Shown here in pieces: positions 1-8,957 of a stretch of DNA of 17,896 nucleotides. Source of the DNA: a virus (lineage: Duplodnaviria; Heunggongvirae; Uroviricota; Caudoviricetes). Under the pieces are notes generated by a model. It was not told the origin of the DNA and ran no database searches. It saw only the letters and a list, made by a program, of their open reading frames with translations. The position numbers were made by a program, and so were the translations under genes. The number at the start of each line of letters is the position of its first letter. Position 1 is the stretch's first letter. The stretch is from IMG/VR virus record IMGVR_UViG_2778261639_000005. The stretch is one strand, 5' to 3'.

Positions 1-7
1 CGGCCGT

Positions 8-853
8 TTGGTAGTACTTAGGATAGCCAACCATCAGATGCTGCATTTGCATAGTGCAATCTCCCCTTACTTATCCGGAGGCAATTGCAATATCTCTGTG
101 AACTTACACACGTATGCGCACAATGCCAGGACGCACAGTACTGAGCAGGTGGCACAACTGGTAGAAAGTATTAAGCAATTCGGCTGGACTAATCCGGTGC
201 TGATTGACGAAAAGGGCGAAATTATTGCGGGTCACGGTCGTGTTATGGCGGCTGAAATGCTCAAAATGGATTCTGTTCCGGTCATTGTTCTGTCTGGCCT
301 GACGGATGAGCAGAAAAAGGCGTACCGCCTGGCAGATAATCGCCTGCCGATGAATGCTGGCTGGGATGAAGATCTGTTGCGGATGGAGCTGTCGGACCTA
401 ATCAATGCTGATTTTGATGTCTCCCTGACAGGCTTCATCCCGACAGAAATTGATGAACTGTTGACGGATGTTTTGCCCGGTACAGGAAATGAGGAGGAGC
501 CGTATACGACGAAAATTGATACGCCTGTTTATGAGCCGTCGGGCGGTAAACCGGATATCAGTGAACTGTACGACGATACGAAAACTCAGGAGCTGATCAG
601 CCGGATACGTTCGGCGTCCCTTGATCCTGATATTGAGAAATTCCTCCTGTGTGCGGCAGAACGTCACACAGTGTTTAATTTCAGCAGAATTGCGGACTAT
701 TACGCTCATGCCCCCGCTGAAATTCAGTGCCTTTTCGAGGAGTCGGCGCTGGTGATCATTGATTATCAGCAGGCTATTGAAAATGGATTTGTCCGAATGA
801 CGCAGCGCATGGTGGAGATCATGCATGGCGGGGAGGAGGAGGAATATGCGTGA
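8..853 (+). CDS. ParB/Srx-like nuclease-domain protein; start uncertain and may lie upstream of the window
   Basis: Motif LHTYAHNARTHSTEQVAQLVESIKQFGWTNPVLIDEKGEIIAGHGRVMAA...VPVIVL fits the ParB N-terminal nuclease fold (NPR-T-H box, then G-x-G/H-R box). Frame is open to the window start; in-window starts are TTG 8 and ATG 38, neither with a strong SD. C-terminal ~150 aa acidic region has no domain I recognise. Stop TGA 851-853. Confidence 0.6.
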   Translation: MVVLRIANHQMLHLHSAISPYLSGGNCNISVNLHTYAHNARTHSTEQVAQLVESIKQFGWTNPVLIDEKGEIIAGHGRVMAAEMLKMDSVPVIVLSGLTDEQKKAYRLADNRLPMNAGWDEDLLRMELSDLINADFDVSLTGFIPTEIDELLTDVLPGTGNEEEPYTTKIDTPVYEPSGGKPDISELYDDTKTQELISRIRSASLDPDIEKFLLCAAERHTVFNFSRIADYYAHAPAEIQCLFEESALVIIDYQQAIENGFVRMTQRMVEIMHGGEEEEYA

Positions 854-1778
854 TGATTTTTGCGCCTTTATTCTGACTCACGGGCGACCGGACAAAGTTC
901 TGACTTACCGGACGTTGCGTCGTGCTGGCTATACCGGGAAAATTTTTATCGTTGTTGATGATGAAGATAAGACACGGCATCAGTACATGGCTGAATTTGG
1001 TGAACAGGTGCTGGTATTTTCCAAAGCCGATATTGCCAGTCGTTTTGACGAAGCCGATAATTTTGGTGATCGCCGCTCAATTTTTTACGCCCGTAATGCC
1101 TGTTTCGACCTGGCAAAACTGGTCGGGTGTAAATACTTCATTCAGCTCGATGATGATTATCACGAGTTCCAGTTTCGGGTGGATCGCAACTATGACCAGG
1201 CCTATTTCCCGATAAGGAAACTGGATGCGATCCTTTCTGAAATGCTGGCGTATTACGAATCAATACCCGCGCTTTCCATCGCTATGTCGCAGGGCGGGGA
1301 TTTTCTTGGTGACAATGGCGGCCATGCTTCGTGGGTGAAACGCAAGGCAATGAACAGCTTTATCTGTTCGGTTGATCGACCGTTCTCATTCATGGGGCGC
1401 ATTAACGAGGATGTGAATACGTACACGAATCTCGGTCGCTGTGGTGAATTGTTTATGACGATCGGTGCTGTCCAGTTAGGGCAGAAACAGACGCAGAAAA
1501 ACAGCGGCGGAATGACCGAGCTGTATCTGGATTCCGGAACCTACGTTAAAAGTTTTTACTCCGTCATGTATTCGCCGTCGTGCGTAAAAATCTCACTGAT
1601 GGGTGCCAGCCATAAACGCATTCACCATCAGGTCACCTGGAACAACGCTGCAGTAAAAATCCTTCACGAAAAATACAGGAAGAAGACACCCTGCATATCA
1701 ATGGGGGTGACAAATGATTCCGTATTCGAAAGTCGAGTCTCTGGCAGCGTGCCGGATGACTGCACAACAAATCGCTGA
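846..1778 (+). CDS. Hypothetical protein, GT-A-fold (family 2-like) putative glycosyltransferase
   Basis: ATG 846 overlaps the upstream stop by 8 nt and is preceded by GGAGGAGGAGG. N-terminus FILTHGRPDKVLTYRTLRRAGYTGKIFIVVDDED resembles the GT2 opening strand and VVDD motif; a DxD-like motif YFIQLDDDY lies about 90 aa downstream. Assignment is from motif resemblance only. Confidence 0.5.
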   Translation: MRDDFCAFILTHGRPDKVLTYRTLRRAGYTGKIFIVVDDEDKTRHQYMAEFGEQVLVFSKADIASRFDEADNFGDRRSIFYARNACFDLAKLVGCKYFIQLDDDYHEFQFRVDRNYDQAYFPIRKLDAILSEMLAYYESIPALSIAMSQGGDFLGDNGGHASWVKRKAMNSFICSVDRPFSFMGRINEDVNTYTNLGRCGELFMTIGAVQLGQKQTQKNSGGMTELYLDSGTYVKSFYSVMYSPSCVKISLMGASHKRIHHQVTWNNAAVKILHEKYRKKTPCISMGVTNDSVFESRVSGSVPDDCTTNR

Positions 1779-1965
1779 CGTTCTGGATGTTGATCTGAAC
1801 CGACTGAAAGAAAATCGGGAAGCAATGACAGATTTTTATGCGGCCATCCGTAAGGGCAGAGCGAAAGGTGAAGCCGAGTTACGAGCGGCATTGTTTAAGC
1901 TTGCCAGAAAAGGGGATGCCTTTGCTCTGCGCGAACTACTCAGGGTGGATAAAAATCAGGACTAA
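1714..1965 (+). CDS. Small hypothetical protein (83 aa), basic and helical; possible DNA-binding or packaging accessory
   Basis: ATG 1714 with GGGGG SD about 6 nt upstream; overlaps the 3' end of the previous gene by 65 nt in another frame; stop TAA 1963-1965 sits 3 nt before the terminase small subunit start. Alternative start ATG 1756 lacks an SD. Confidence 0.45.
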   Translation: MIPYSKVESLAACRMTAQQIADVLDVDLNRLKENREAMTDFYAAIRKGRAKGEAELRAALFKLARKGDAFALRELLRVDKNQD

Positions 1966-1968
1966 CTG

Positions 1969-3063
1969 ATGAGCAGACCGGACTGGGGGGCGTTGCAGCA
2001 GGAGTATATTGCTGAATACACCCGCTCCGGTATATCTCCGGTGGCATGGTGTGAAGCAAGGGGACTGAACTACGCAACAGCCCGTCGTTACATCAAAAAA
2101 ACTCCGAAAAATGCGCAGAAAGAAATGCGCAAAACTGCGCAAAAAAGTGCGCGAAAAAAAACTGCGCAGACTGCGCAAAGGCAGAACGGAAAATCTCAGA
2201 AAAAAAAGGCTGTATCCGATGCACTCCTGATTGAGGGGGACACGGAAGAAATTTCGTTCTGCCCCGATGAATTCGGTATTTCTGACCAGCAGGCAAAATT
2301 CGCCATGTTGGTTGCTCAGGGGAAAAAGCCGACAGAGGCATACCGACTGGCTGGTTATGAGGGGCAAGGTGCGACAGCTAACAGCAACGCCAGCCGTATG
2401 CTTAGAAATGCCAGGGTTTATCGTGCTATCAGCTACTTCCGCAATCAGTACCAGAAACGCTATACCGCAGACCTGGATTTACTGGTGAGCCAGTTGATGG
2501 CCATTGTCCAGGCCGACCCCAATCAGTTGGCACAATTTCGCCGTGTTAACTGCCGTTATTGCTGGGGCGAGAATCATCTCTACCAGTGGCGTGATATTGC
2601 AGAATTCGATAAGGCTGCGGCACAGGCCTCCAGAGATGGTAAACCCGAGCCGGAATATGGAGGCCTCGGCTTTGTTGATAACGCCATACCCAATCCTGAT
2701 TGCCCGAAGTGCTGCGGTGAGGGAACAGGACAGCTTTATATGGCTGATACCACACTGCTTGATGGGGATGCGCGGCAATTATATGCAGGGTCAAAGCTCG
2801 GAAAATACGGTGTTGAGATCCTGCTGGAGGATAAGGCTGCCGCCCGGCGTGAATTGTTGCGTTTGCTTTCTGCTGGCGGGGCATTATGTGCAGATAAGCG
2901 GCTACAGGAACTGGAAATTGAACGGCGCAGAATAGAGAACCAGAAGCTGCGCAAAGAGATCGAAACGGTGGAGGATAATGAACATCCCCAGCCTGTGGCG
3001 ATCAATATTAATGTGGTTGATGCCAGATTAAGGAGTGATGAAGATGATCTCTCCGACGCTTAA
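1969..3063 (+). CDS. Terminase small subunit (Terminase_2-like)
   Basis: Segment ISDQQAKFAMLVAQGKKPTEAYRLAGYEGQGATANSNASRMLRNARVYRAI matches the conserved terminase small subunit DNA-binding motif. AGGA SD 8 nt upstream of ATG 1969. Sits immediately upstream of the large subunit. Contains a Lys/Ala/Gln-rich low-complexity linker. Confidence 0.8.
   Translation: MSRPDWGALQQEYIAEYTRSGISPVAWCEARGLNYATARRYIKKTPKNAQKEMRKTAQKSARKKTAQTAQRQNGKSQKKKAVSDALLIEGDTEEISFCPDEFGISDQQAKFAMLVAQGKKPTEAYRLAGYEGQGATANSNASRMLRNARVYRAISYFRNQYQKRYTADLDLLVSQLMAIVQADPNQLAQFRRVNCRYCWGENHLYQWRDIAEFDKAAAQASRDGKPEPEYGGLGFVDNAIPNPDCPKCCGEGTGQLYMADTTLLDGDARQLYAGSKLGKYGVEILLEDKAAARRELLRLLSAGGALCADKRLQELEIERRRIENQKLRKEIETVEDNEHPQPVAININVVDARLRSDEDDLSDA
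2112..2177. repeat. Array of palindromic TGCGCA hexamers (5 perfect copies plus 1 TGCGCG variant) inside the terminase small subunit gene
   Basis: TGCGCA at 2112, 2126, 2136, 2163 and 2172; TGCGCG at 2148; spacing 9-15 bp. Flanked by A-rich tracts. The copies coincide with Ala-Gln codons of the linker. Confidence 0.6.
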
Positions 3064-4345
3064 TGTGCCTCAGGCGCGATTTCTTTCAATGCCCCATAAA
3101 TTTAAAGCCTATATTGCTGGTTTTGGCTCGGGCAAAACATGGGTTGGGTGTGGCGGCATATGCAAGGGGATTTGGGAGCATCCAGGTATAAATCAGGGAT
3201 ATTTTGCGCCAACGTATCCCCAAATTCGCGATATTTTTTACCCTACAGTGGAAGAAGTTGCTGCTGACTGGGGATTGAACGTAAAAATTAATGAGGGAAA
3301 TAAAGAGGTTCACTTTTATTACGGACGCCAGTATCGGGGAACCACTATCTGCAGATCGATGGAGAAGCCACAAACGATCGTCGGTTTCAAAATTGGTAAT
3401 GCGCTGGTGGATGAACTGGACATTTTGCCGAAGGAAAAAGCCAGAACGGCGTGGCGCAAGATAATTGCGCGTATGCGTTATAAGATTGATGGACTTCGCA
3501 ACGGTATTGACGTTACAACCACGCCGGAAGGATTCAAATTTGTCTACGAGCAGTTTGTTAAAGCCGTGCGTGAAAAAACAGAGCTGGCCTCACTGTATGG
3601 TCTGGTGCAGGCATCTACTTTCGATAATGAAAAGAACCTGCCAGCAGATTACATTCCTTCACTTCTTGAATCATACCCTCCAGAGCTGATTAAAGCCTAT
3701 CTTCTAGGACGGTTTACTAACCTGACAAGTGGTACTGTTTACCATCAGTTTGACCGGAAACTGAATAATTGCGAAGAAGTGGAGCAGCCAGGGGAGCCGA
3801 TTTATATTGGGATGGATTTTAACGTTGGAAAGATGGCGGGAATCGTCCATGTGCTGCGTTTGGGGCTTCCATGTGCGGTAACTGAAATCATCAATGCCTA
3901 CGATACGCCGGATATGATCCGCCTCATTAAAGAACGCTTCTGGCTGTATGACGGGCATGATTACCGGAAAGTGAGGGAGATTTATATTTATCCAGATGCT
4001 TCCGGAGATTCCAGAAAATCAAGTAACGCAAGTACGACGGATATAGCCCAGCTTAAGCAGGCAGGTTTTAACGTTGTGGTGAACAGCTCGAACCCGCCAG
4101 TAAAAGATCGCGTTAACTCAATGAATGCAATGTTCTGCAATGCCAATGGTGAGCGTCGCTATAAAGTTAATGTGAAGCGTTGTCCGGTATATGCCGAATC
4201 TCTGGAGCAACAGGTCTGGGATGATAAGGGGGAGCCTGATAAAAAATCTGGCAATGATCACCCGAATGATGCCGGAGGTTATTTCATCGTTAAGCAATTC
4301 CCTATTGTCAAACCGACCGGAAGAGTCACATCACTTCGGATTTAA
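3044..4345 (+). CDS. Terminase large subunit
   Basis: Walker A motif AGFGSGKT near the N-terminus. AAGGAG SD at 3030-3035 lies 8 nt before ATG 3044; the track start 3035 is GTG with ATG 3038 too close to the SD. Follows the small subunit and precedes the portal. Confidence 0.85.
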   Translation: MISPTLNVPQARFLSMPHKFKAYIAGFGSGKTWVGCGGICKGIWEHPGINQGYFAPTYPQIRDIFYPTVEEVAADWGLNVKINEGNKEVHFYYGRQYRGTTICRSMEKPQTIVGFKIGNALVDELDILPKEKARTAWRKIIARMRYKIDGLRNGIDVTTTPEGFKFVYEQFVKAVREKTELASLYGLVQASTFDNEKNLPADYIPSLLESYPPELIKAYLLGRFTNLTSGTVYHQFDRKLNNCEEVEQPGEPIYIGMDFNVGKMAGIVHVLRLGLPCAVTEIINAYDTPDMIRLIKERFWLYDGHDYRKVREIYIYPDASGDSRKSSNASTTDIAQLKQAGFNVVVNSSNPPVKDRVNSMNAMFCNANGERRYKVNVKRCPVYAESLEQQVWDDKGEPDKKSGNDHPNDAGGYFIVKQFPIVKPTGRVTSLRI

Positions 4346-4347
4346 TT

Positions 4348-5754
4348 ATGGCTGATATATCAACACCCAACCTCGACTATAACGATATGCTGGAGGCGTG
4401 GGATATTAACGACGCATTGATGGGCGGTACGCTTGAAATGCGCAGGCAGGGGGAAAATTATCTCCCCAAATGGCCTAATGAAGATGAAGACGCTTATAAA
4501 AAACGCCTGTCTGTGGCTACGTTACTTCCTGTGTATGAAGAAAGCATCAAACAAAATATTGGGCGCATATTTGCAGAGCCGACAGTATTGAGTGAGGAAA
4601 CGCCGGAAAAAATCAGGGAATATGCAGAAAATATCGACATGGAGGGGAGCCGACTGGATGTGTGGGCGCAGCAATTTTTCAGTCTCGCATTTCAGTATGG
4701 TGTGGCACATGCGCTGGTGGACTATCCACGAACGGATATGAACGAGATTCGGACAAAAGCCGATGAAAACGCGGCCGGTGGTCGCCCGTACGTTACGATG
4801 CTGAATCCACGCCAGGTTATTGGATGGAAATCGAAAGTTGAAAAAGGGAAAGTTGTTCTCACTGATTTGCGTATAAAAGAGGTCATCATTATTGATGGTG
4901 ATGATTTCGGGCAGAAGAAGGTGGAGCAGATCCGCCATATTATGCCCCGTCGAGTAGAAATTTATCGACGCAGCGAAGGTACTAATGGCGAATCTGTCTG
5001 GATGCTTCATGAGTCATGGAATACCAGCCGTGATGATATTCCTCTGGTAACACTGTATACGAAGAAAACAGGGTTTATGCGTGGTACACCGCCATTGCTT
5101 AATCTTGGCTTGCTGAATATCAAGCACTGGCAAAGCCAGAGCGAGCAGGACAATATTCTTCATGTTGCCCGCGTTCCATTGCTGGTGGCCTACGGGCTGG
5201 ACAGGAATGAAGAACTGACGGTTGGTGCATCCACGGCTACGATTTTTGAGGACAGAACAAAAAATGGCCTCGAATATGTTGAACATAGTGGCGCAGCGAT
5301 AGAATCTGGCGAAACATCACTTGAGAAGCTGGAAAATCAGATGCGTCATTCCGGCGCTAAACTTCTGCGGGCTGAAAATACATCCACCAAATCTGTTGAT
5401 CAGACTAATGAAGAGCGGATGCAGGAACACTCGCCGCTTTATACAATGGCGAACTCCCTCGAAGATGCCCTCGATAATATTCTCCAGATAATGGCGGAAT
5501 GGAGCGGAGAGAGTTGCGGTGGCAATGTGGATGTGCGCACTGAACTGGATGTATCTGCCCAGGTGTTTGACTCATCCTCCGCGCTGGCTGTTCAGTCATT
5601 GCGTCAGGGCGGTGATATACGTCAGATTGATGCGGTTCGGGTGTTGCAGGCGTTGAAATTTATCGATCAGGATTCCCGTCCAGAGGAAGTGATCGATGAA
5701 TTAAAAAATCAGAGTGTAATGCTGATGGAAATCAATGATGCAAACCGTGAATGA
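4348..5754 (+). CDS. Portal protein (putative)
   Basis: 468-aa ORF immediately after the terminase large subunit (stop TAA 4343-4345, ATG 4348) and overlapping the start of the head morphogenesis gene. Size and position are canonical for a portal; no diagnostic motif was verified by eye. Confidence 0.65.
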   Translation: MADISTPNLDYNDMLEAWDINDALMGGTLEMRRQGENYLPKWPNEDEDAYKKRLSVATLLPVYEESIKQNIGRIFAEPTVLSEETPEKIREYAENIDMEGSRLDVWAQQFFSLAFQYGVAHALVDYPRTDMNEIRTKADENAAGGRPYVTMLNPRQVIGWKSKVEKGKVVLTDLRIKEVIIIDGDDFGQKKVEQIRHIMPRRVEIYRRSEGTNGESVWMLHESWNTSRDDIPLVTLYTKKTGFMRGTPPLLNLGLLNIKHWQSQSEQDNILHVARVPLLVAYGLDRNEELTVGASTATIFEDRTKNGLEYVEHSGAAIESGETSLEKLENQMRHSGAKLLRAENTSTKSVDQTNEERMQEHSPLYTMANSLEDALDNILQIMAEWSGESCGGNVDVRTELDVSAQVFDSSSALAVQSLRQGGDIRQIDAVRVLQALKFIDQDSRPEEVIDELKNQSVMLMEINDANRE

Positions 5755-6850
5755 ACGGCTGCGTGATGAATCAATTGCTCATGCAGTCTGGATATCCCGC
5801 TATAGCACTGGCGTGGCTGCCAGAATGGTGAAAATACTGAATGACAGCGATGCGGAACTTACTGCTCGCCTGCTGATAGCACTGGACAGCCTCGATCCAG
5901 GTAGTTTTACCGTTAAGCGCCTGGAGTCACTTCTGGCGAGCGTCAGAGAGGTTAACCGCACTGCTATTAACAGCATGTTTACCAGTCTCTCCGGAGAGCT
6001 GAACGAGCTGGCAATTTATGAGGCTGGTTATCAGTTAAGTCTGTTTGATTCTATGCTACCTGATTTTGTTGCTGATGTTCACCCTCTGGTTGGTATCTCT
6101 CCTGATGCACTTTATGCCGCTGCAATGGCGCGACCATTCCAGGGACGACTGCTCAGTGAGTGGGCCTCAGATCTTGAGGCGGATCGGCTCAGACGCATAA
6201 CAAATACAGTGCGTCAGGGTTTTTTGCTGGGGGATACCAATGAGCAGATCGCAAGAAAAATTCGGGGACATGTCAGTAAGGGATTTCAGGATGGTGCATT
6301 GCAGATGAGCCGGGCTAATGCGGCCAGCATTGCAAAAACAGCGGTTGGACATCTTGCTGCTACTGCCCGTGAGAGTTTTGCCAGCGCGAATAATGATTTG
6401 ATTAAGGGTAAGCAATGGTTATCAACGCTTGATAATCGTACTACGCCACAATGTCGAATCAGGGATCGCCTCAAATATACGCTGAATAATAAACCTGTAG
6501 GTCACAGCGTGCCTTATTTGCAGGGGCCGGGAAAAATTCATTTCTGCTGCCGCTCAACGGAAACGTTCATTCTGAAATCAGCGAAGGAACTGGGTATTGA
6601 TGTTCGCGATATTTCCCCGGCTGAGCGGGCCAGCATGGATGGCGTGGTGGCCGGAGATACAACCTACAGGGAATGGTTTTTGCGTCAGCCTTACACCAGA
6701 CAAAAACAGATTGTGGGGGAAAGCCGAGCAAAGCTGATTCGGGATGGTGGTATGTCGCCAGATGAATTTTACACCGATAAAGGCGAATGGCTGACGCTGA
6801 AGCAGCTCCGTGAGCGTGATGCACAGGTATTCAGAAAAGCAGGGATTTAA
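5735..6850 (+). CDS. Head morphogenesis protein (Mu gpF / SPP1 gp7 family)
   Basis: C-terminal region DNRTTPQCRIRDRL...HSVPYLQGPGKIHFCCRST fits the Phage_Mu_F signature (D-x-R-T...C-R...P...H-x-x-C-R). Located directly after the portal. Stop TAA 6848-6850. Confidence 0.7.
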   Translation: MMQTVNERLRDESIAHAVWISRYSTGVAARMVKILNDSDAELTARLLIALDSLDPGSFTVKRLESLLASVREVNRTAINSMFTSLSGELNELAIYEAGYQLSLFDSMLPDFVADVHPLVGISPDALYAAAMARPFQGRLLSEWASDLEADRLRRITNTVRQGFLLGDTNEQIARKIRGHVSKGFQDGALQMSRANAASIAKTAVGHLAATARESFASANNDLIKGKQWLSTLDNRTTPQCRIRDRLKYTLNNKPVGHSVPYLQGPGKIHFCCRSTETFILKSAKELGIDVRDISPAERASMDGVVAGDTTYREWFLRQPYTRQKQIVGESRAKLIRDGGMSPDEFYTDKGEWLTLKQLRERDAQVFRKAGI

Positions 6851-6869: not shown

Positions 6870-6895
6870 AGGCTACCTTCGGGTGGCCTTTTTTA
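6870..6895 (+). terminator. Intrinsic terminator-like hairpin with UUCG tetraloop and T-run
   Basis: AGGCTACC(6870-6877)-TTCG-GGTGGCCT(6882-6889) forms an 8-bp stem with one G-U pair, followed by TTTTT. Lies 20 nt after the head morphogenesis stop. Confidence 0.6.
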
Positions 6896-6954
6896 TTGCT
6901 GCGATCCGGATGGTGAGCAGCGTAACTGTCGGAAGACTTAAACCAGGTACTAAT

Positions 6955-7719
6955 ATGAAACTGAAAACGGTCGAGATTAACGGAAAACAATACGCAGAAA
7001 TTGATACTGCTGGCCTGCCAGTTTATGTGCACGACGATGGTAAAGAAATTGGCTTCGATGCACCGCTGGCGACAAAAAAAATTACAGAGCTTAATGGCGA
7101 GGCAAAAAATCATCGCCTGGCTAAAGAAGCTGCAGAGGAAAAACTGGCTAAGTTTGCCGCTATCGAAGACCCGAAGAAGGCGATCGAGGCACTGGAAATG
7201 CTGTCAAAAATCGACCAGAAAAAGCTGCTCGATGCGGGACAGGTTGACCAGGTTAAGGCAGAAATTACGAAAAATTTTCAGCAGCAATTAGATGAAGAAA
7301 AGCAACGCTCTCAGATGCTGGAGAAGCAGCTTTACGATTCTATGATTGGCGGTAGTTTTGCGGGTTCAAAATATATTGCCGATAAAATTGCGATCCCGGC
7401 AGATTTATTACAAGCCCGCTTCGGGCAGGCATTCAAAGTGGAAGAAGGGAGGATCGTTGCTTATGACGCTTCCGGCAACAAAATTTATTCCCGCGCGAAG
7501 CCTGGCGAACTGGCGCAGTTTGATGAGGCGCTGGAGTTCCTTGTCGAAAATTACCCTCAGAAAGACTACATCCTGAAAGCCAGTGGCAACAATGGCGGCG
7601 GCTCCCGTCCGACACAGCATGATATTGGTCAGAAAACGATGAAACGCTCTGCTTTTGATGCACTGGATGTTGCAGGTAAGCAAAACGCATTGAAAGACGG
7701 TATCACAATCGTTGATTAA
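6955..7719 (+). CDS. Putative scaffolding protein
   Basis: Hydrophilic, Lys/Glu/Ala-rich, predicted coiled-coil protein between the head morphogenesis and major capsid genes. Start taken as ATG 6955 because track start 6883 (GTG) lies inside the terminator hairpin; ATG 6910 is an alternative. Confidence 0.45.
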   Translation: MKLKTVEINGKQYAEIDTAGLPVYVHDDGKEIGFDAPLATKKITELNGEAKNHRLAKEAAEEKLAKFAAIEDPKKAIEALEMLSKIDQKKLLDAGQVDQVKAEITKNFQQQLDEEKQRSQMLEKQLYDSMIGGSFAGSKYIADKIAIPADLLQARFGQAFKVEEGRIVAYDASGNKIYSRAKPGELAQFDEALEFLVENYPQKDYILKASGNNGGGSRPTQHDIGQKTMKRSAFDALDVAGKQNALKDGITIVD

Positions 7720-7817
7720 CACATTTGTCAGCTTCCGGATGGGAGCTGGTGTCAGGGCTGGATAGCTCATTACTCCATCTATTCACAATTACGCAAATTT
7801 TTAAGGAATATTTAATT

Positions 7818-8957
7818 ATGGCTGGAAATACCCTGACCGGGTTGATCCCGACTATTTATACCGCCCTGGATGTTGTATCCCGTGAGCAGGTAGGTTTTAT
7901 CCCTGCGGTAGCAAAAAACGCAAAAGCTGACGCCGCAGCAAAAGATCAGACGGTAACCGCGCCAGTTGCGCCTGAGGCGAAAACCGAAGATATCGTACCG
8001 GGGCCGTCAGCTCCGAATACCGGTGATCAGAATATTGGCACTGTTGATGTAAAAATTACTAAATCCAAAATGGCACCGGTTAAATGGAATGGTGAAGAAC
8101 AACTGGCTCTTGGCCCTTCAGGGACTTACAACACCATTCTGGCTGATCAGTTCAAGCAGGCTTTTCGCGCCCTTGCAAACGAGGTTGAGGCTGATCTTGG
8201 TGCGTTGTATTTCGGTGCTTCCCGCGCCGTGGGAACCGCAGGGACAACGCCGTTTGGTGTTAAAGATGATCTTTCTGATGCTGCTCTGGCTCGTCAGGTT
8301 CTGGAGGATAACGGCGCACCGACAACCGATCTGCAGATGGTGCTTGGCTCCACTGCCATTGCTAATTTGCGCGGAAAACAGTCTGTATTGTTTAAAGTGA
8401 ATGAATCCGGCACTGAACAGCTACTGCGTGAGGGCGTGTTGGGGCGTCTGGAGGGATTCAATATTCACAGTTCGGCAGGTGTGAAACGAGCGCCAAAGGT
8501 TGCTGCAACTGGTTATCTCGTGAATGGAGAGAAAAAAGAAGGCGATGTTCTTATTTCCATTGATACTGGTTCGGGGAGTATTTCTGCAGGTCAGATTGTT
8601 ACGTTCGCTGGTGATCCGAATCAGTATGTTGTGGCAGCAGCGACCAGCAATCTGATTACTCTTGCAGCGCCCGGACTGCGTCAGGATCTGGCCGATGATA
8701 CTGCCATCACAGTTGTTGGGGCCTTTACTGCAAATATGGCGTTTGATCGCAACGCGTTTCTGCTGGTATCCCGTACTCCGGCAATGCCGGAAGGTGGCGA
8801 TAATGCTGATGATGTAATGAATGTTACGGACCCGATTTCAGGGATTACGTTCCAGATTGCACTGTATCGTCAGTATCGCCAGGTGCGCTATGAAGTTGGA
8901 CTGGCATGGGGTGTTTCATCAGTGAAGCCGGCACATGGTTGTCTGATTCTTGGTTAA
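7818..8957 (+). CDS. Major capsid (coat) protein
   Basis: 379-aa ORF with AAGGA SD (7803-7807) upstream of ATG 7818, following the scaffold gene and followed by a strong terminator, the typical arrangement for a highly expressed coat gene. The track ORF start 7725 is an upstream in-frame extension without an SD. Confidence 0.65.
   Translation: MAGNTLTGLIPTIYTALDVVSREQVGFIPAVAKNAKADAAAKDQTVTAPVAPEAKTEDIVPGPSAPNTGDQNIGTVDVKITKSKMAPVKWNGEEQLALGPSGTYNTILADQFKQAFRALANEVEADLGALYFGASRAVGTAGTTPFGVKDDLSDAALARQVLEDNGAPTTDLQMVLGSTAIANLRGKQSVLFKVNESGTEQLLREGVLGRLEGFNIHSSAGVKRAPKVAATGYLVNGEKKEGDVLISIDTGSGSISAGQIVTFAGDPNQYVVAAATSNLITLAAPGLRQDLADDTAITVVGAFTANMAFDRNAFLLVSRTPAMPEGGDNADDVMNVTDPISGITFQIALYRQYRQVRYEVGLAWGVSSVKPAHGCLILG

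What the first reader, a model, noticed from the sequence alone, without database searches (positions are those of the whole stretch)
8..1965. Accessory pair upstream of the terminase: ParB/Srx-like nuclease-domain protein plus GT-A-like glycosyltransferase, with a small overlapping ORF
The stretch just upstream of the packaging genes is a classic slot for phage accessory cargo. Here it holds two translationally coupled genes (8-nt overlap, strong SD): one with a clear ParB/Srx N-terminal nuclease-fold motif and an unrecognised acidic C-terminal domain, and one whose N-terminus and DxD-like motif resemble a GT-A nucleotide-sugar transferase. A third small basic ORF overlaps the GT-like gene by 65 nt. 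A DNA-binding/nicking ParB-fold protein paired with a sugar transferase next to the packaging machinery suggests a DNA-targeted modification or anti-restriction function, or a packaging-associated nuclease with a lysogenic-conversion glycosyltransferase. I know of no characterised system with this architecture, so this is the most likely place for something undescribed in the window.
Basis: partly seen in the sequence, partly recalled or inferred. Interest (0 to 1): 0.7.

Follow-up and report, generated by a model that had tools for sequence, protein, structure and literature searches.

The report
ParB-adaptor plus DNA-type glycosyltransferase phage module
Just upstream of the packaging genes of this Rac-like E. 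coli prophage lies a two-gene cassette, found in many viruses of bacteria and at least one virus of archaea, that pairs a ParB-fold protein carrying an unnamed C-terminal domain with a sugar transferase of the DNA-base-glycosylating family; no enzyme that would make the usual hydroxymethyl acceptor was found near it, and in this window an insertion sequence cuts the first gene.

Summary
The ORFs, the 8-nt and 65-nt overlaps and the Shine-Dalgarno sequence are real. However, window 1-110 is the end of an IS481-family insertion sequence, so "ORF1 8-853" is a chimera. The real gene is a ynaK-type ParB/Srx gene (263 aa when intact) that has lost about 17 codons here.

ORF2 (true start 846) is a soluble GT-A enzyme of Pfam TAGT (PF20691, 6e-35). 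It keeps the R…DDD…ED motifs of phage and trypanosome DNA-base glycosyltransferases.

The main result is that this GT clade always sits next to a roughly 120-aa C-terminal domain (CTD) that has no Pfam family:
- 81 of 83 diverse loci retrieved with the GT have the CTD partner; the two exceptions are contig edges.
- 80 of 80 loci retrieved with the CTD have the GT.
- No other gene family is found in more than 14 of the 83 loci.

The CTD usually follows a ParB NTD of the type fused to phage DNA methyltransferases, and the pair then lies upstream of terminases of many kinds. Sometimes the CTD stands alone, between DNA polymerase A and a beta-clamp gene.

No TET/JBP or thymidylate-synthase-like gene is annotated in two phage records examined, one complete and one cut off in its tail genes.

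Best reading: a two-component, DNA-directed glycosylation module with an unknown acceptor. It is a new variant of the ParB-assisted DNA-modification theme.

The parts
1..110 (-). Terminal 110 nt of an IS481-family insertion sequence. The transposase start codon is at 50-52 and reads leftwards; the IS terminus is at 110. The IS interrupts the ParB gene.
   Evidence: 100% identity over 1-110 to IS481-family copies at many unrelated loci, up to 38 per genome. Annotated transposase CDS in L168 and L169. Three-way alignment places the divergence point at 110/111.
111..853 (+). 5'-truncated ynaK-type gene encoding a ParB/Srx (ParB-CTPase fold) N-terminal domain (about 113-430), a helix pair and a disordered linker carrying the conserved motif PYTTKIDTPVYEPS (500-541), and an acidic helical CTD (about 563-850; AAERHTVFNF 653-682, SALVIIDY 743-766). 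About 17 N-terminal codons and the native start are missing.
   Evidence: Pfam ParB_N at 29 bits; phrog_620 at 1e-83 over the full length. The NTD matches the ParB domain of methyltransferase fusions (phrog_498 8e-48; PADLOC MTase_II 1.5e-38). AF2 model plus Foldseek hits to Noc, ParB, KorB and PadC. Alignments A3, A4 and A6.
832..845 (+). Shine-Dalgarno run GGGGAGGAGGAGGA in front of the GT start, inside the end of the ParB gene (translational coupling).
   Evidence: Read directly from the sequence.
846..1778 (+). Soluble GT-A glycosyltransferase of the TAGT family, 310 aa. Motifs: HGRP 879-890, LDDDY 1146-1160, NEDVNTY 1404-1424. The last 21 or so residues are an Escherichia-lineage extension that overlaps ORF3.
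   Evidence: Pfam PF20691 at 6e-35 (121.5 bits, cut-off 27.5); phrog_842 at 1.5e-103. GT-A fold hits: SpsA, glycogenin, SunS/ThuS, heparosan synthase. TAGT-domain viral models are the best hits in BFVD. Alignment A2. No transmembrane segment.
1714..1965 (+). Small basic ORF3 (83 aa, pI 9.25), resembling part of a small terminase subunit. It is a packaging-module gene of the enterobacterial lineage and not part of the conserved pair.
   Evidence: phrog_309 'terminase small subunit' at 8e-23, profile positions 145-218 of 319. Homologues in only 5 of 83 diverse loci (cluster 39). N-terminus conserved.
1969..4345 (+). Context: small terminase subunit (1969-3063, Terminase_2) and large terminase subunit (3035-4345, Terminase_6N/6C).
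   Evidence: Pfam and PHROG matches.

Best explanation
The two genes form one functional unit: a DNA-directed glycosylation module.

The catalytic subunit is the basic, soluble GT-A enzyme of the TAGT/JGT-like family, which probably uses a UDP-sugar (inferred). Its obligate partner supplies a roughly 120-aa acidic helical CTD and a conserved linker motif (Y-[ST]-x-K-[IV]-x-x-P-x-Y-x-P). These are inferred to bind, and perhaps complete, the GT.

In most phages the CTD is fused to a ParB-CTPase-fold domain of the kind otherwise fused to phage DNA methyltransferases. That domain lacks any HTH DNA-binding domain. It is inferred to load or hold the enzyme on double-stranded DNA, in the way the 5mYOX-associated ParB activates its dioxygenase on dsDNA.

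In lambdoid phages such as this one the pair lies in the late operon directly before terS/terL. Inferred consequence: concatemeric phage DNA would be glycosylated after replication, around the time of packaging, probably to protect it from host nucleases or defence systems.

What is shown: the family assignments, the folds, the strict pairing and the gene contexts.

What is inferred: the physical CTD-GT complex, DNA as the substrate, the timing and the protective role.

What is unknown: the acceptor atom, because no hydroxymethylpyrimidine-producing enzyme was found with the pair.

In this particular window the ParB gene is cut by an IS481-family element, so the local copy is probably impaired. 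The CTD and the GT are intact, and CTD-only partners exist naturally.
For: 1. The GT belongs to TAGT with the catalytic motifs conserved. It has a GT-A fold. The same R…DDD…ED[Y/F] motifs define experimentally active phage DNA GT-A enzymes and JGT (bioRxiv 10.1101/2023.12.21.572611).
2. The pairing is obligate and reciprocal. The partner is present in 81 of 83 GT-retrieved loci from many phyla, and the two misses are contig edges. All 80 CTD-retrieved IMG/VR loci hold the GT, 79 of them directly adjacent. No other gene family is in more than 14 of the 83 loci. The distance matrices of CTD and GT correlate (Mantel r 0.84, 0 of 300 permutations as high).
3. The ParB NTD is closest to the ParB domains of phage DNA methyltransferase fusions and has the ParB-CTPase fold with the GxGR and DN motifs invariant.
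4. There is a second context class. A CTD-only partner (about 132 aa) plus GT lies between DNA polymerase A and a DnaN-like clamp gene (L112, L116, L151). It also lies next to a primase-helicase gene (L106), between a SAM methyltransferase gene and a clamp gene (L157), and in the replication module of 190-kb Vibrio phages.
5. Accessory genes are typical of glycan-building pathways: UDP-galactopyranose mutase after the GT (L149), a GT-SAM-methyltransferase fusion followed by a second GT (L146), tandem GTs (L143, L161, L112, L151) and a DegT-family aminotransferase.
6. There is an architectural precedent. ParB176 has an NBD, a helix pair, an unstructured linker and a CTD, with no DNA-binding domain, and is needed by its cognate enzyme on dsDNA (PMC13229309). 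The AF2 model here has the same layout.
7. The gene order in the intact relative is Q, lysis genes, trkG, ParB, GT, terS.
Against: - No TET/JBP, thymidylate-synthase-like hydroxymethylase or other acceptor-making enzyme is annotated in the complete 31.8-kb phage c5 genome or in the 38.7-kb Rac-like record ON470614, which ends within its tail genes. None was seen among the neighbour families sampled. The only characterised acceptors of this GT family are therefore missing.
- One TAGT-family member, GREB1, glycosylates a protein and not DNA (PMC7968844).
- The whole ParB partner is acidic (pI 4.4) and has no recognisable DNA-binding domain.
- In the 5mYOX system, NTP-site mutations did not abolish ParB function, so a clamp mechanism is unproven even for the closest precedent.
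- The gene is repeatedly broken in E. coli: IS481 here, IS3 in at least 7 genomes, and the truncated forms. It is therefore dispensable for the lysogen.
- AF2 confidence is low for the GT C-terminal third and the CTD.
Confidence: 0.5

Rival explanations
1. Protein glycosylation. The GT glycosylates a protein: either its own partner, at the invariant Tyr/Thr/Pro motif in the disordered linker (glycogenin-style), or a packaging, virion or host protein. ParB-CTD would then be the substrate or a substrate adaptor.
For: GREB1, a TAGT-family domain, O-GlcNAcylates ERalpha (PMC7968844). Glycogenin and the peptide S-glycosyltransferases SunS and ThuS are among the fold matches. The disordered linker (pLDDT below 50 at residues 137-161) carries invariant Y148, K151, P155, Y157 and P159. 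No hydroxymethyl-base pathway is present.
Against: The ParB NTD is of the type fused to DNA methyltransferases. The alternative contexts lie between DNA polymerase, primase-helicase and beta-clamp genes. The closest sequence and fold relatives are phage TAGT proteins. An invariant linear motif is equally expected for a docking peptide.
Confidence: 0.15
2. Hydroxymethyl-base-dependent transferase without its own hydroxylase. The pair glycosylates 5hmC or 5hmU made by something else (an unrecognised enzyme elsewhere in the phage, oxidative damage, or the DNA of co-infecting phages), or it is an inactive remnant of a three-gene 5mYOX-ParB-GT pathway.
For: The family was defined by its association with TET/JBP. 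5mYOX neighbourhoods frequently hold GTs (31%), ParBs (27%) and terminases (19%) (PMC13229309). About 65% of phage GT contigs lack a neighbouring 5mYOX or ThyS, and the authors could not exclude distant partners. C5-cytosine methyltransferase genes lie about 5 kb upstream in 12 of 83 loci.
Against: The complete 31.8-kb genome of phage c5 has no candidate gene, and none is annotated in the 38.7-kb Rac-like record. The pair keeps at least 45% identity across phyla with its catalytic residues invariant, which is strong purifying selection that a remnant would not show. The late-operon position does not fit action on invaders during lysogeny.
Confidence: 0.15
3. Packaging accessory. The ParB-fold protein marks or recognises pac/cos DNA, or acts as a nuclease, for the terminase, and the GT has an unrelated or regulatory role.
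For: The position immediately upstream of terS/terL is nearly constant. In phage c5 these are the first two genes after cos. Aravind and co-workers suggested that ParB directs modification apparatuses to DNA during packaging (cited in PMC8256090).
Against: The pair is indifferent to terminase family and packaging mode. In the second context class it sits in replication modules and has no ParB NTD. It is the CTD, not the ParB NTD, that is invariably linked to the GT.
Confidence: 0.08
4. Lysogenic-conversion (surface glycan) glycosyltransferase next to an unrelated ParB-like gene.
For: The genes are prophage cargo sitting beside the moron trkG. GT-A enzymes such as TarP serve this role in other prophages.
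Against: The protein has no membrane segment and no GtrA/GtrC-type partners. The genes are in the late operon. The same pair occurs in lytic Lactobacillus phages, in 190-kb Vibrio phages and in a haloarchaeal virus. The coupling to the CTD is strict.
Confidence: 0.02

Closest known systems
5mYOX-associated ParB activators (e.g. ParB176 with the thymine dioxygenase 5mYOX176; O'Toole et al., PNAS 2026, PMC13229309)
   Same: A phage ParB homologue with a nucleotide-binding ParB domain, a short helical segment, an unstructured linker and a C-terminal domain, but no DNA-binding domain. It is encoded beside a cognate DNA-modifying enzyme, and such neighbourhoods often also hold terminase genes. Partners are cognate-specific.
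   Different: The partner enzyme here is a GT-A glycosyltransferase, not an Fe/2OG dioxygenase. No dioxygenase was found near it. Sequence relatedness of the two CTDs could not be tested because those sequences are not held. Activation has not been shown here.
TAGT / phage GT-A DNA glycosyltransferases and the trypanosome base-J glucosyltransferase JGT (Pfam PF20691; bioRxiv 10.1101/2023.12.21.572611)
   Same: Pfam family membership, GT-A fold, and conserved R…DDD…ED motifs. Tandem GTs and sugar-tailoring genes occur in some loci.
   Different: The characterised members act on 5hmC or 5hmU made by a co-encoded 5mYOX or ThyS homologue. This clade has none nearby and is instead invariably coupled to the CTD protein.
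ParB-DNA methyltransferase fusions of phages (phrog_498; ParB-CTPase fold fused to N6_N4_Mtase or Methyltransf_23; PMC12704722)
   Same: The ParB N-terminal domain is most similar to theirs (8e-48 and 1.5e-38). One relative (L114) even carries a Methyltransf_23 domain fused to ParB-CTD.
   Different: Here the catalytic domain is a separate polypeptide recruited through a dedicated CTD, and the chemistry is glycosyl transfer rather than methyl transfer.
T4 alpha- and beta-glucosyltransferases
   Same: Phage enzymes that glucosylate DNA to evade restriction.
   Different: They have a GT-B fold and act on hmC incorporated before replication. They have no ParB-type partner. (From established knowledge; not tested here.)
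GREB1 (mammalian TAGT-domain O-GlcNAc transferase; PMC7968844)
   Same: RefSeq names some copies of ORF2 'GREB1-related protein', and a GREB1 paper aligns its GT domain with the phage TAGT.
   Different: GREB1 is a 1949-aa eukaryotic protein that modifies a protein substrate.

Membership tests
TAGT / DNA-base GT-A glycosyltransferases (PF20691) | Profile match above the curated cut-off | tested here: met
   121.5 bits against a cut-off of 27.5, covering profile positions 4-205 of 205.
TAGT / DNA-base GT-A glycosyltransferases (PF20691) | GT-A fold with the R…DDD…ED[Y/F] active-site motifs | tested here: met
   Foldseek hits to SpsA, glycogenin and other GT-A enzymes, and to TAGT models in BFVD. 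R14, D102-D104 and E188-D189 are invariant in A2. The third motif reads EDV rather than EDY/F.
TAGT / DNA-base GT-A glycosyltransferases (PF20691) | Co-encoded source of the hydroxymethylpyrimidine acceptor (TET/JBP-type 5mYOX or ThyS-like hydroxymethylase) | tested here: not met
   None is annotated in the complete genome of phage c5 or in the 38.7-kb Rac-like record ON470614. None appears in 5 neighbourhoods with precomputed Pfam hits. No such family is recurrent among neighbours of 83 loci. A rare single occurrence cannot be excluded.
TAGT / DNA-base GT-A glycosyltransferases (PF20691) | Transfer of a sugar to DNA | not testable with these tools
   Requires nucleoside LC-MS or an enzyme assay.
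ParB-CTPase fold (ParB/Srx N-terminal domain) | Profile match and fold | tested here: met
   ParB_N at 29 bits against a cut-off of 26.3. Foldseek hits to Noc, ParB, KorB and PadC at E 1e-6 to 1e-5.
ParB-CTPase fold (ParB/Srx N-terminal domain) | Nucleotide-binding motifs (GxxR P-motif; Asn of box III) | tested here: met
   G57, G59, R60, D92 and N93 are invariant in 40 sequences. The position I equate, by inspection only, with the catalytic Glu of canonical GERR is His58, so hydrolysis may differ (inference).
Canonical segregation ParB (ParABS) | HTH DNA-binding domain, ParA partner, parS | tested here: not met
   No HTH domain in the Pfam results or the AF2 model. TIGR00180 scores 38 bits against a cut-off of 58. 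No parA gene in the neighbourhoods.
5mYOX-associated ParB activators | NBD, helix pair, unstructured linker and CTD, with no DNA-binding domain | tested here: met
   AF2 model: NTD 1-100, helices 103-134, low-confidence linker 137-161, helical CTD 166-255, compared with the published description.
5mYOX-associated ParB activators | Adjacent cognate 5-methylpyrimidine dioxygenase | tested here: not met
   The adjacent gene is the GT in every locus examined.
5mYOX-associated ParB activators | Partner enzyme depends on ParB for activity on dsDNA | not testable with these tools
   Requires co-expression or in vitro assays.
ParB-DNA methyltransferase fusions | Methyltransferase domain in the same polypeptide | tested here: not met
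   Only the ParB part matches (residues 32-159 against phrog_498 positions 42-171 of 633; residues 10-144 against MTase_II positions 13-151 of 436).
Gtr-type lysogenic-conversion glycosyltransferases | Membrane-associated GT with flippase and serotype-specific partners | tested here: not met
   Maximum Kyte-Doolittle hydropathy over 19 residues is 1.08, so there is no transmembrane segment. No Gtr-like neighbours.

The most novel reading that the evidence does not exclude
The CTD-GT pair is a heterodimeric enzyme that glycosylates canonical DNA, without any prior hydroxymethylation. The acceptor would be an exocyclic amine or another position of an ordinary base, or a DNA end. The enzyme would be delivered by a ParB-fold clamp in cis or by a beta sliding clamp in trans. 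This would be a previously unknown chemistry of DNA modification. It would be present in about 1,000 protein clusters (50% identity) of viruses of bacteria and of at least one archaeal virus, and in roughly one in six complete E. coli genomes.
Probability: 0.2. Interest if true: 0.9.

Novelty: new variant of a known kind. Interest (0 to 1): 0.62.

Why it matters
Post-replicative DNA hypermodification in phages is currently understood as a chain: a methyltransferase or thymine, then a 5mYOX, then tailoring enzymes such as GTs. About two thirds of phage GT contigs lack the first steps and were set aside as 'less likely' to act on DNA.

This analysis shows that a large, highly conserved part of those orphans is not really orphan. 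It is locked to a dedicated adaptor domain, which is usually fused to the ParB domain that phages otherwise attach to DNA methyltransferases, or is placed beside polymerase and sliding-clamp genes.

That makes two open questions directly testable in E. coli, using a natural Rac-like prophage. First, what do hydroxylase-less TAGT enzymes modify? Second, what do orphan phage ParB-fold proteins do?

If the acceptor is an unmodified base, this would be a new DNA modification. It would have consequences for restriction and defence evasion, for sequencing-based detection of modifications, and for enzyme tools.

If the acceptor is a protein, it would be a widespread viral protein-glycosylation system tied to DNA transactions.

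Tried and rejected
- Literature searches for TAGT+ParB, ynaK, 'associated glycosyltransferase', GREB1-related/JGT/ParB-like and HHTV-2 found no paper that describes this pair as a unit. Iyer et al. 2013 (NAR), which named TAGT, is not held, so what it says about ParB-TAGT neighbourhoods could not be checked.
- PADLOC and NCBIfam have no model for the GT or for ORF3.
- Sequence searches of the PDB with CTD and GT profiles gave only chance-level hits. The CTD had no fold match.
- The afdb50 fold library was unavailable, so the reported similarity to JGT was not reproduced.
- A CTD-GT fusion protein was looked for among the 150 best CTD representatives and not found. The CTD is almost always at the C-terminus, in proteins of 93-433 aa.
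- A conserved third gene was sought by clustering all ORFs within 10 kb in 83 loci, and none was found. Radical SAM genes (6 loci) and C5-methyltransferase genes (12 loci) are too sporadic to be general partners.
- A heterodimer structure prediction was not possible with the tools, which handle single chains and allow two jobs. A direct-coupling analysis was not attempted, since only 205 non-redundant pairs were available.
- The supplementary sequences of the 5mYOX-associated ParBs are not held, so the CTDs could not be compared.
- I considered ORF3 as a third component and rejected it, because it is lineage-restricted and resembles a small terminase subunit.
- I considered the annotation 'beta-glucosyl-HMC-alpha-glucosyltransferase' used in RefSeq phage records. 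It matches the PHROG 842 label and probably derives from it (inference); it is not evidence of that activity.
Full report
**What is in the sequence.** The window is the late region of a Rac-like lambdoid prophage of E. coli.
- Positions 107-3100 are 97% identical to induced phages such as vB_EcoS-666R9.
- 866 of 5,426 complete E. coli genomes hold at least 80% of window 1-2000. RefSeq names the first gene there ynaK, 'ParB/Srx family N-terminal domain-containing protein', and names the second 'hypothetical' or 'GREB1-related'.
- In the 38.7-kb record of that relative (it ends in the tail genes) the gene order is Q antiterminator, lysis genes, trkG, ParB, GT, a small ORF, terS, terL, portal.
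The GT start at ATG 846 overlaps the ParB stop (851-853) by 8 nt, behind GGGGAGGAGGAGGA.
- ORF3 (1714-1965) overlaps the GT gene by 65 nt. Its N-terminus is conserved in other genera, so that start is real.
- In relatives the GT is 285-299 aa and ends at or before the ORF3 start. The overlap therefore comes from a 21-residue C-terminal extension found in the Escherichia and Shigella copies.

**Correction to the observation.** Window 1-110 is not ParB sequence.
- It is 100% identical to IS481-family elements at many unrelated chromosomal and plasmid sites, up to 38 per genome.
- The transposase start codon is at window 50-52 on the minus strand.
- A three-way alignment puts the IS terminus at 110/111.
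- The intact gene begins MSEKLKIVYRPLQELSPYAHNARTHS. About 17 codons and the native start are displaced here, and 'ORF1 8-853' is a chimeric reading frame.
- Other E. coli strains carry an IS3 in the same gene, and the homologue lists contain truncated variants. The gene is evidently dispensable to the lysogen.

**The two proteins.**

ORF2:
- It matches Pfam TAGT (PF20691) at 6e-35 and phrog_842 at 1.5e-103.
- It has no hydrophobic segment and is mildly basic (pI 8.0-8.6).
- R14, the D102-D104 triad and E188-D189 are invariant. This is the R…DDD…ED pattern reported for active phage DNA GT-A enzymes and JGT.
- The AF2 model is confident over the first 150 or so residues and poor beyond residue 216. 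It matches GT-A enzymes in the PDB and TAGT-domain proteins in BFVD.

The intact partner protein:
- It matches ParB_N just above threshold, and phrog_620 over its whole length.
- Its N-terminal domain is most like the ParB domain fused to phage DNA methyltransferases (phrog_498 8e-48; PADLOC MTase_II 1.5e-38).
- The model shows a ParB-CTPase fold (Noc, ParB, KorB, PadC), followed by two helices, a low-confidence linker and a helical C-terminal domain.
- G57, G59, R60, D92 and N93 are invariant.
- No HTH DNA-binding domain is present, and the protein is acidic throughout (pI 4.4).
- The C-terminal 120 or so residues match no Pfam family and no solved structure.

**The key finding: an obligate pair.**
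- I fetched 80 loci from one-genome-per-species bacterial and archaeal genomes using the GT, plus loci from three contig look-ups.
- These came from Proteobacteria, Bacteroidota, Firmicutes, Verrucomicrobiota, Planctomycetota, Acidobacteriota, Saccharibacteria and others, with GT identity 45-100%.
- In 81 of 83 diverse loci a gene encoding the conserved CTD abuts or overlaps the GT start on the same strand. The two exceptions start at a contig edge.
- Clustering every ORF within 10 kb showed that no other family occurs in more than 14 of the 83 loci.
- In the reverse experiment, 80 IMG/VR loci were fetched with a CTD-only alignment. The GT was present in 80 of 80 and directly adjacent in 79.
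- Pairwise divergences of CTD and GT are correlated (Mantel r 0.84). The correlation is weak (r 0.22) among distant pairs.
- A full scan of 1.84 billion representative proteins found 1,195 CTD-bearing clusters at 50% identity (1,008 at E ≤ 1e-10). In almost all of the 150 best hits the CTD is at the C-terminus. Most are 230-330 aa, and about a fifth are under 200 aa.
- The CTD motifs Y[ST]xK[IV]xxPxYxP, AAxRHxxF[ND][YF]xxIA[ED][YF]Y and SALVIID are conserved from E. coli to a haloarchaeal virus.

**Contexts.**

Class i consists of ParB-NTD+CTD followed by the GT, immediately upstream of terminase genes of quite different kinds.
- These include Terminase_2/6 here, lambda GpA, HK97-type TerL with HNH, Terminase_3, and Sf6-like (small subunit) or T7-like terminases.
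- In Lactobacillus phage c5 these are ORF1 and ORF2, the first genes after cos.
- In halovirus HHTV-2 they are gp21 and gp22, 2.9 kb upstream of the large terminase subunit gene with eight small ORFs between.

Class ii consists of a stand-alone CTD of about 132 aa followed by the GT, inside replication modules.
- It lies between DNA polymerase A and a DnaN-like clamp gene (L112, L116, L151).
- It lies after a primase-helicase gene (L106), and between a SAM methyltransferase gene and a clamp gene (L157).
- It lies between primase/exonuclease and helicase genes in 190-kb Vibrio phages.

Occasional additions:
- UDP-galactopyranose mutase right after the GT (L149).
- A GT fused to a SAM methyltransferase, followed by a second GT (L146).
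- A methyltransferase-ParB-CTD fusion (L114).
- Tandem GTs.
- A radical SAM gene after the GT in six loci, most of them Firmicutes MAGs.
- A DegT-type aminotransferase.

**What is missing.** No TET/JBP dioxygenase, thymidylate-synthase-like hydroxymethylase or DNA methyltransferase is annotated in the complete 31.8-kb genome of phage c5 or in the 38.7-kb Rac-like record. None appears in five neighbourhoods with precomputed Pfam hits, nor as a recurrent family among the neighbours sampled. C5-methyltransferase genes occur about 5 kb upstream in 12 of 83 loci. The Pfam census of neighbours was a sample of cluster representatives, so a rare occurrence of a dioxygenase cannot be excluded.

**Interpretation.** Every line of context points to DNA as the target:
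- the GT family;
- the methyltransferase-type ParB domain;
- the polymerase and clamp neighbourhoods;
- the sugar-tailoring accessories.

The strict linkage is between the GT and the CTD, not the ParB domain. I therefore infer that the CTD and its linker motif dock onto, or complete, the GT. The ParB domain (class i) would supply DNA engagement, a job that in class ii may fall to the adjacent sliding clamp (speculative).

The nearest experimental precedent is the ParB-dependent thymine dioxygenase system. In it, a ParB with the same domain layout and no DNA-binding domain is required specifically on dsDNA and is specific for its cognate enzyme (PMC13229309).

Late-operon placement next to the terminase suggests modification of replicated DNA around the time of packaging, in line with the earlier suggestion attributed to Aravind and co-workers. 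The acceptor is unknown and is the crux. Either an unrecognised source of hydroxymethyl bases exists, or this clade uses a different acceptor on DNA, or it glycosylates a protein, as the TAGT-domain protein GREB1 does.

**Status of the local copy.** Because IS481 removes the start and the first strand of the ParB domain, the ParB function is probably lost in this strain. The CTD and the GT are intact, and natural CTD-only partners exist. Residual activity would depend on expression from the IS junction, which I did not assess.

**Novelty.** The component families and the general idea of ParB homologues in DNA-hypermodification clusters are known. I found no description of the CTD, of its one-to-one coupling to a hydroxylase-less TAGT clade, or of the two context classes in the literature that is held. 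The founding TAGT paper could not be read. I therefore rate this a new variant of a known kind. It is of substantial interest because it is widespread, conserved and directly testable in E. coli.

Noticed in passing
window 1-110: The window starts inside an IS481-family insertion sequence (transposase start at 50-52 on the minus strand; terminus at 110) that has inserted into codon 17 or so of the ParB gene. No complete E. coli genome in the collection showed this exact junction among the best hits; all of those start matching at 107.
   Followed up: yes
E. coli genomes H18-H24, homologous to window 107-2000: At least seven other E. coli strains carry a 1.26-kb IS3-family insertion within the same 1.9-kb ParB-GT stretch (annotations show the ParB gene split). 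Truncated or fused ParB and GT variants also appear in the homologue lists. The module seems to be repeatedly inactivated in lysogens.
   Followed up: partly
window 1700-1778: The Escherichia and Shigella GT copies have a 21-residue C-terminal extension (…ISMGVTNDSVFESRVSGSVPDDCTTNR) that is absent from the other aligned homologues. It creates the 65-nt overlap with ORF3.
   Followed up: yes
L112, L116, L151, L157 (and L250, Vibrio phages): A subclass has a CTD-only partner (about 132 aa, no ParB domain) with the GT embedded between DNA polymerase A (or a SAM methyltransferase) and a DnaN-like beta-clamp gene. This hints that a sliding clamp may replace the ParB domain.
   Followed up: partly
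L142, L143, L144, L159, L166 (rep L159:2095-3081): A radical SAM protein (about 320 aa, no specific NCBIfam assignment) is encoded directly after the GT and before terS in six loci, most of them from Firmicutes MAGs. Its role is unknown. It might relate to making or tailoring the acceptor.
   Followed up: partly
L149:3340-4527; L146:3581-5272; L114:189-1736: Three variants were seen: UDP-galactopyranose mutase immediately after the GT; a GT fused to a class I SAM methyltransferase and followed by a second GT; and a Methyltransf_23-ParB-CTD triple fusion.
   Followed up: partly
window 2100-2215 (TerS residues about 44-82): The small terminase subunit has a lysine/glutamine/alanine-rich low-complexity insert (KKTPKNAQKEMRKTAQKSARKKTAQTAQRQNGKSQKKK). 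Only 2121-2853 of the gene matches Rac-SA53 and an Actinobacillus phage at 88-91%, which indicates mosaicism within terS.
   Followed up: no
window 5735-6850: The gene after the portal gene corresponds to one annotated 'NAD+--asparagine ADP-ribosyltransferase' in the related phages, and is followed by two ORFs (6883-7719, 7725-8957) both annotated 'P22 coat protein'. These annotations were not verified here.
   Followed up: no
RefSeq phage records: Members of this GT clade are annotated 'beta-glucosyl-HMC-alpha-glucosyltransferase' in RefSeq phage records. The wording is the PHROG 842 label, from which it probably derives. The phages concerned (e.g. Lactobacillus c5, HHTV-2) have no annotated hmC pathway in the regions examined, so the name is probably an over-annotation.
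   Followed up: partly
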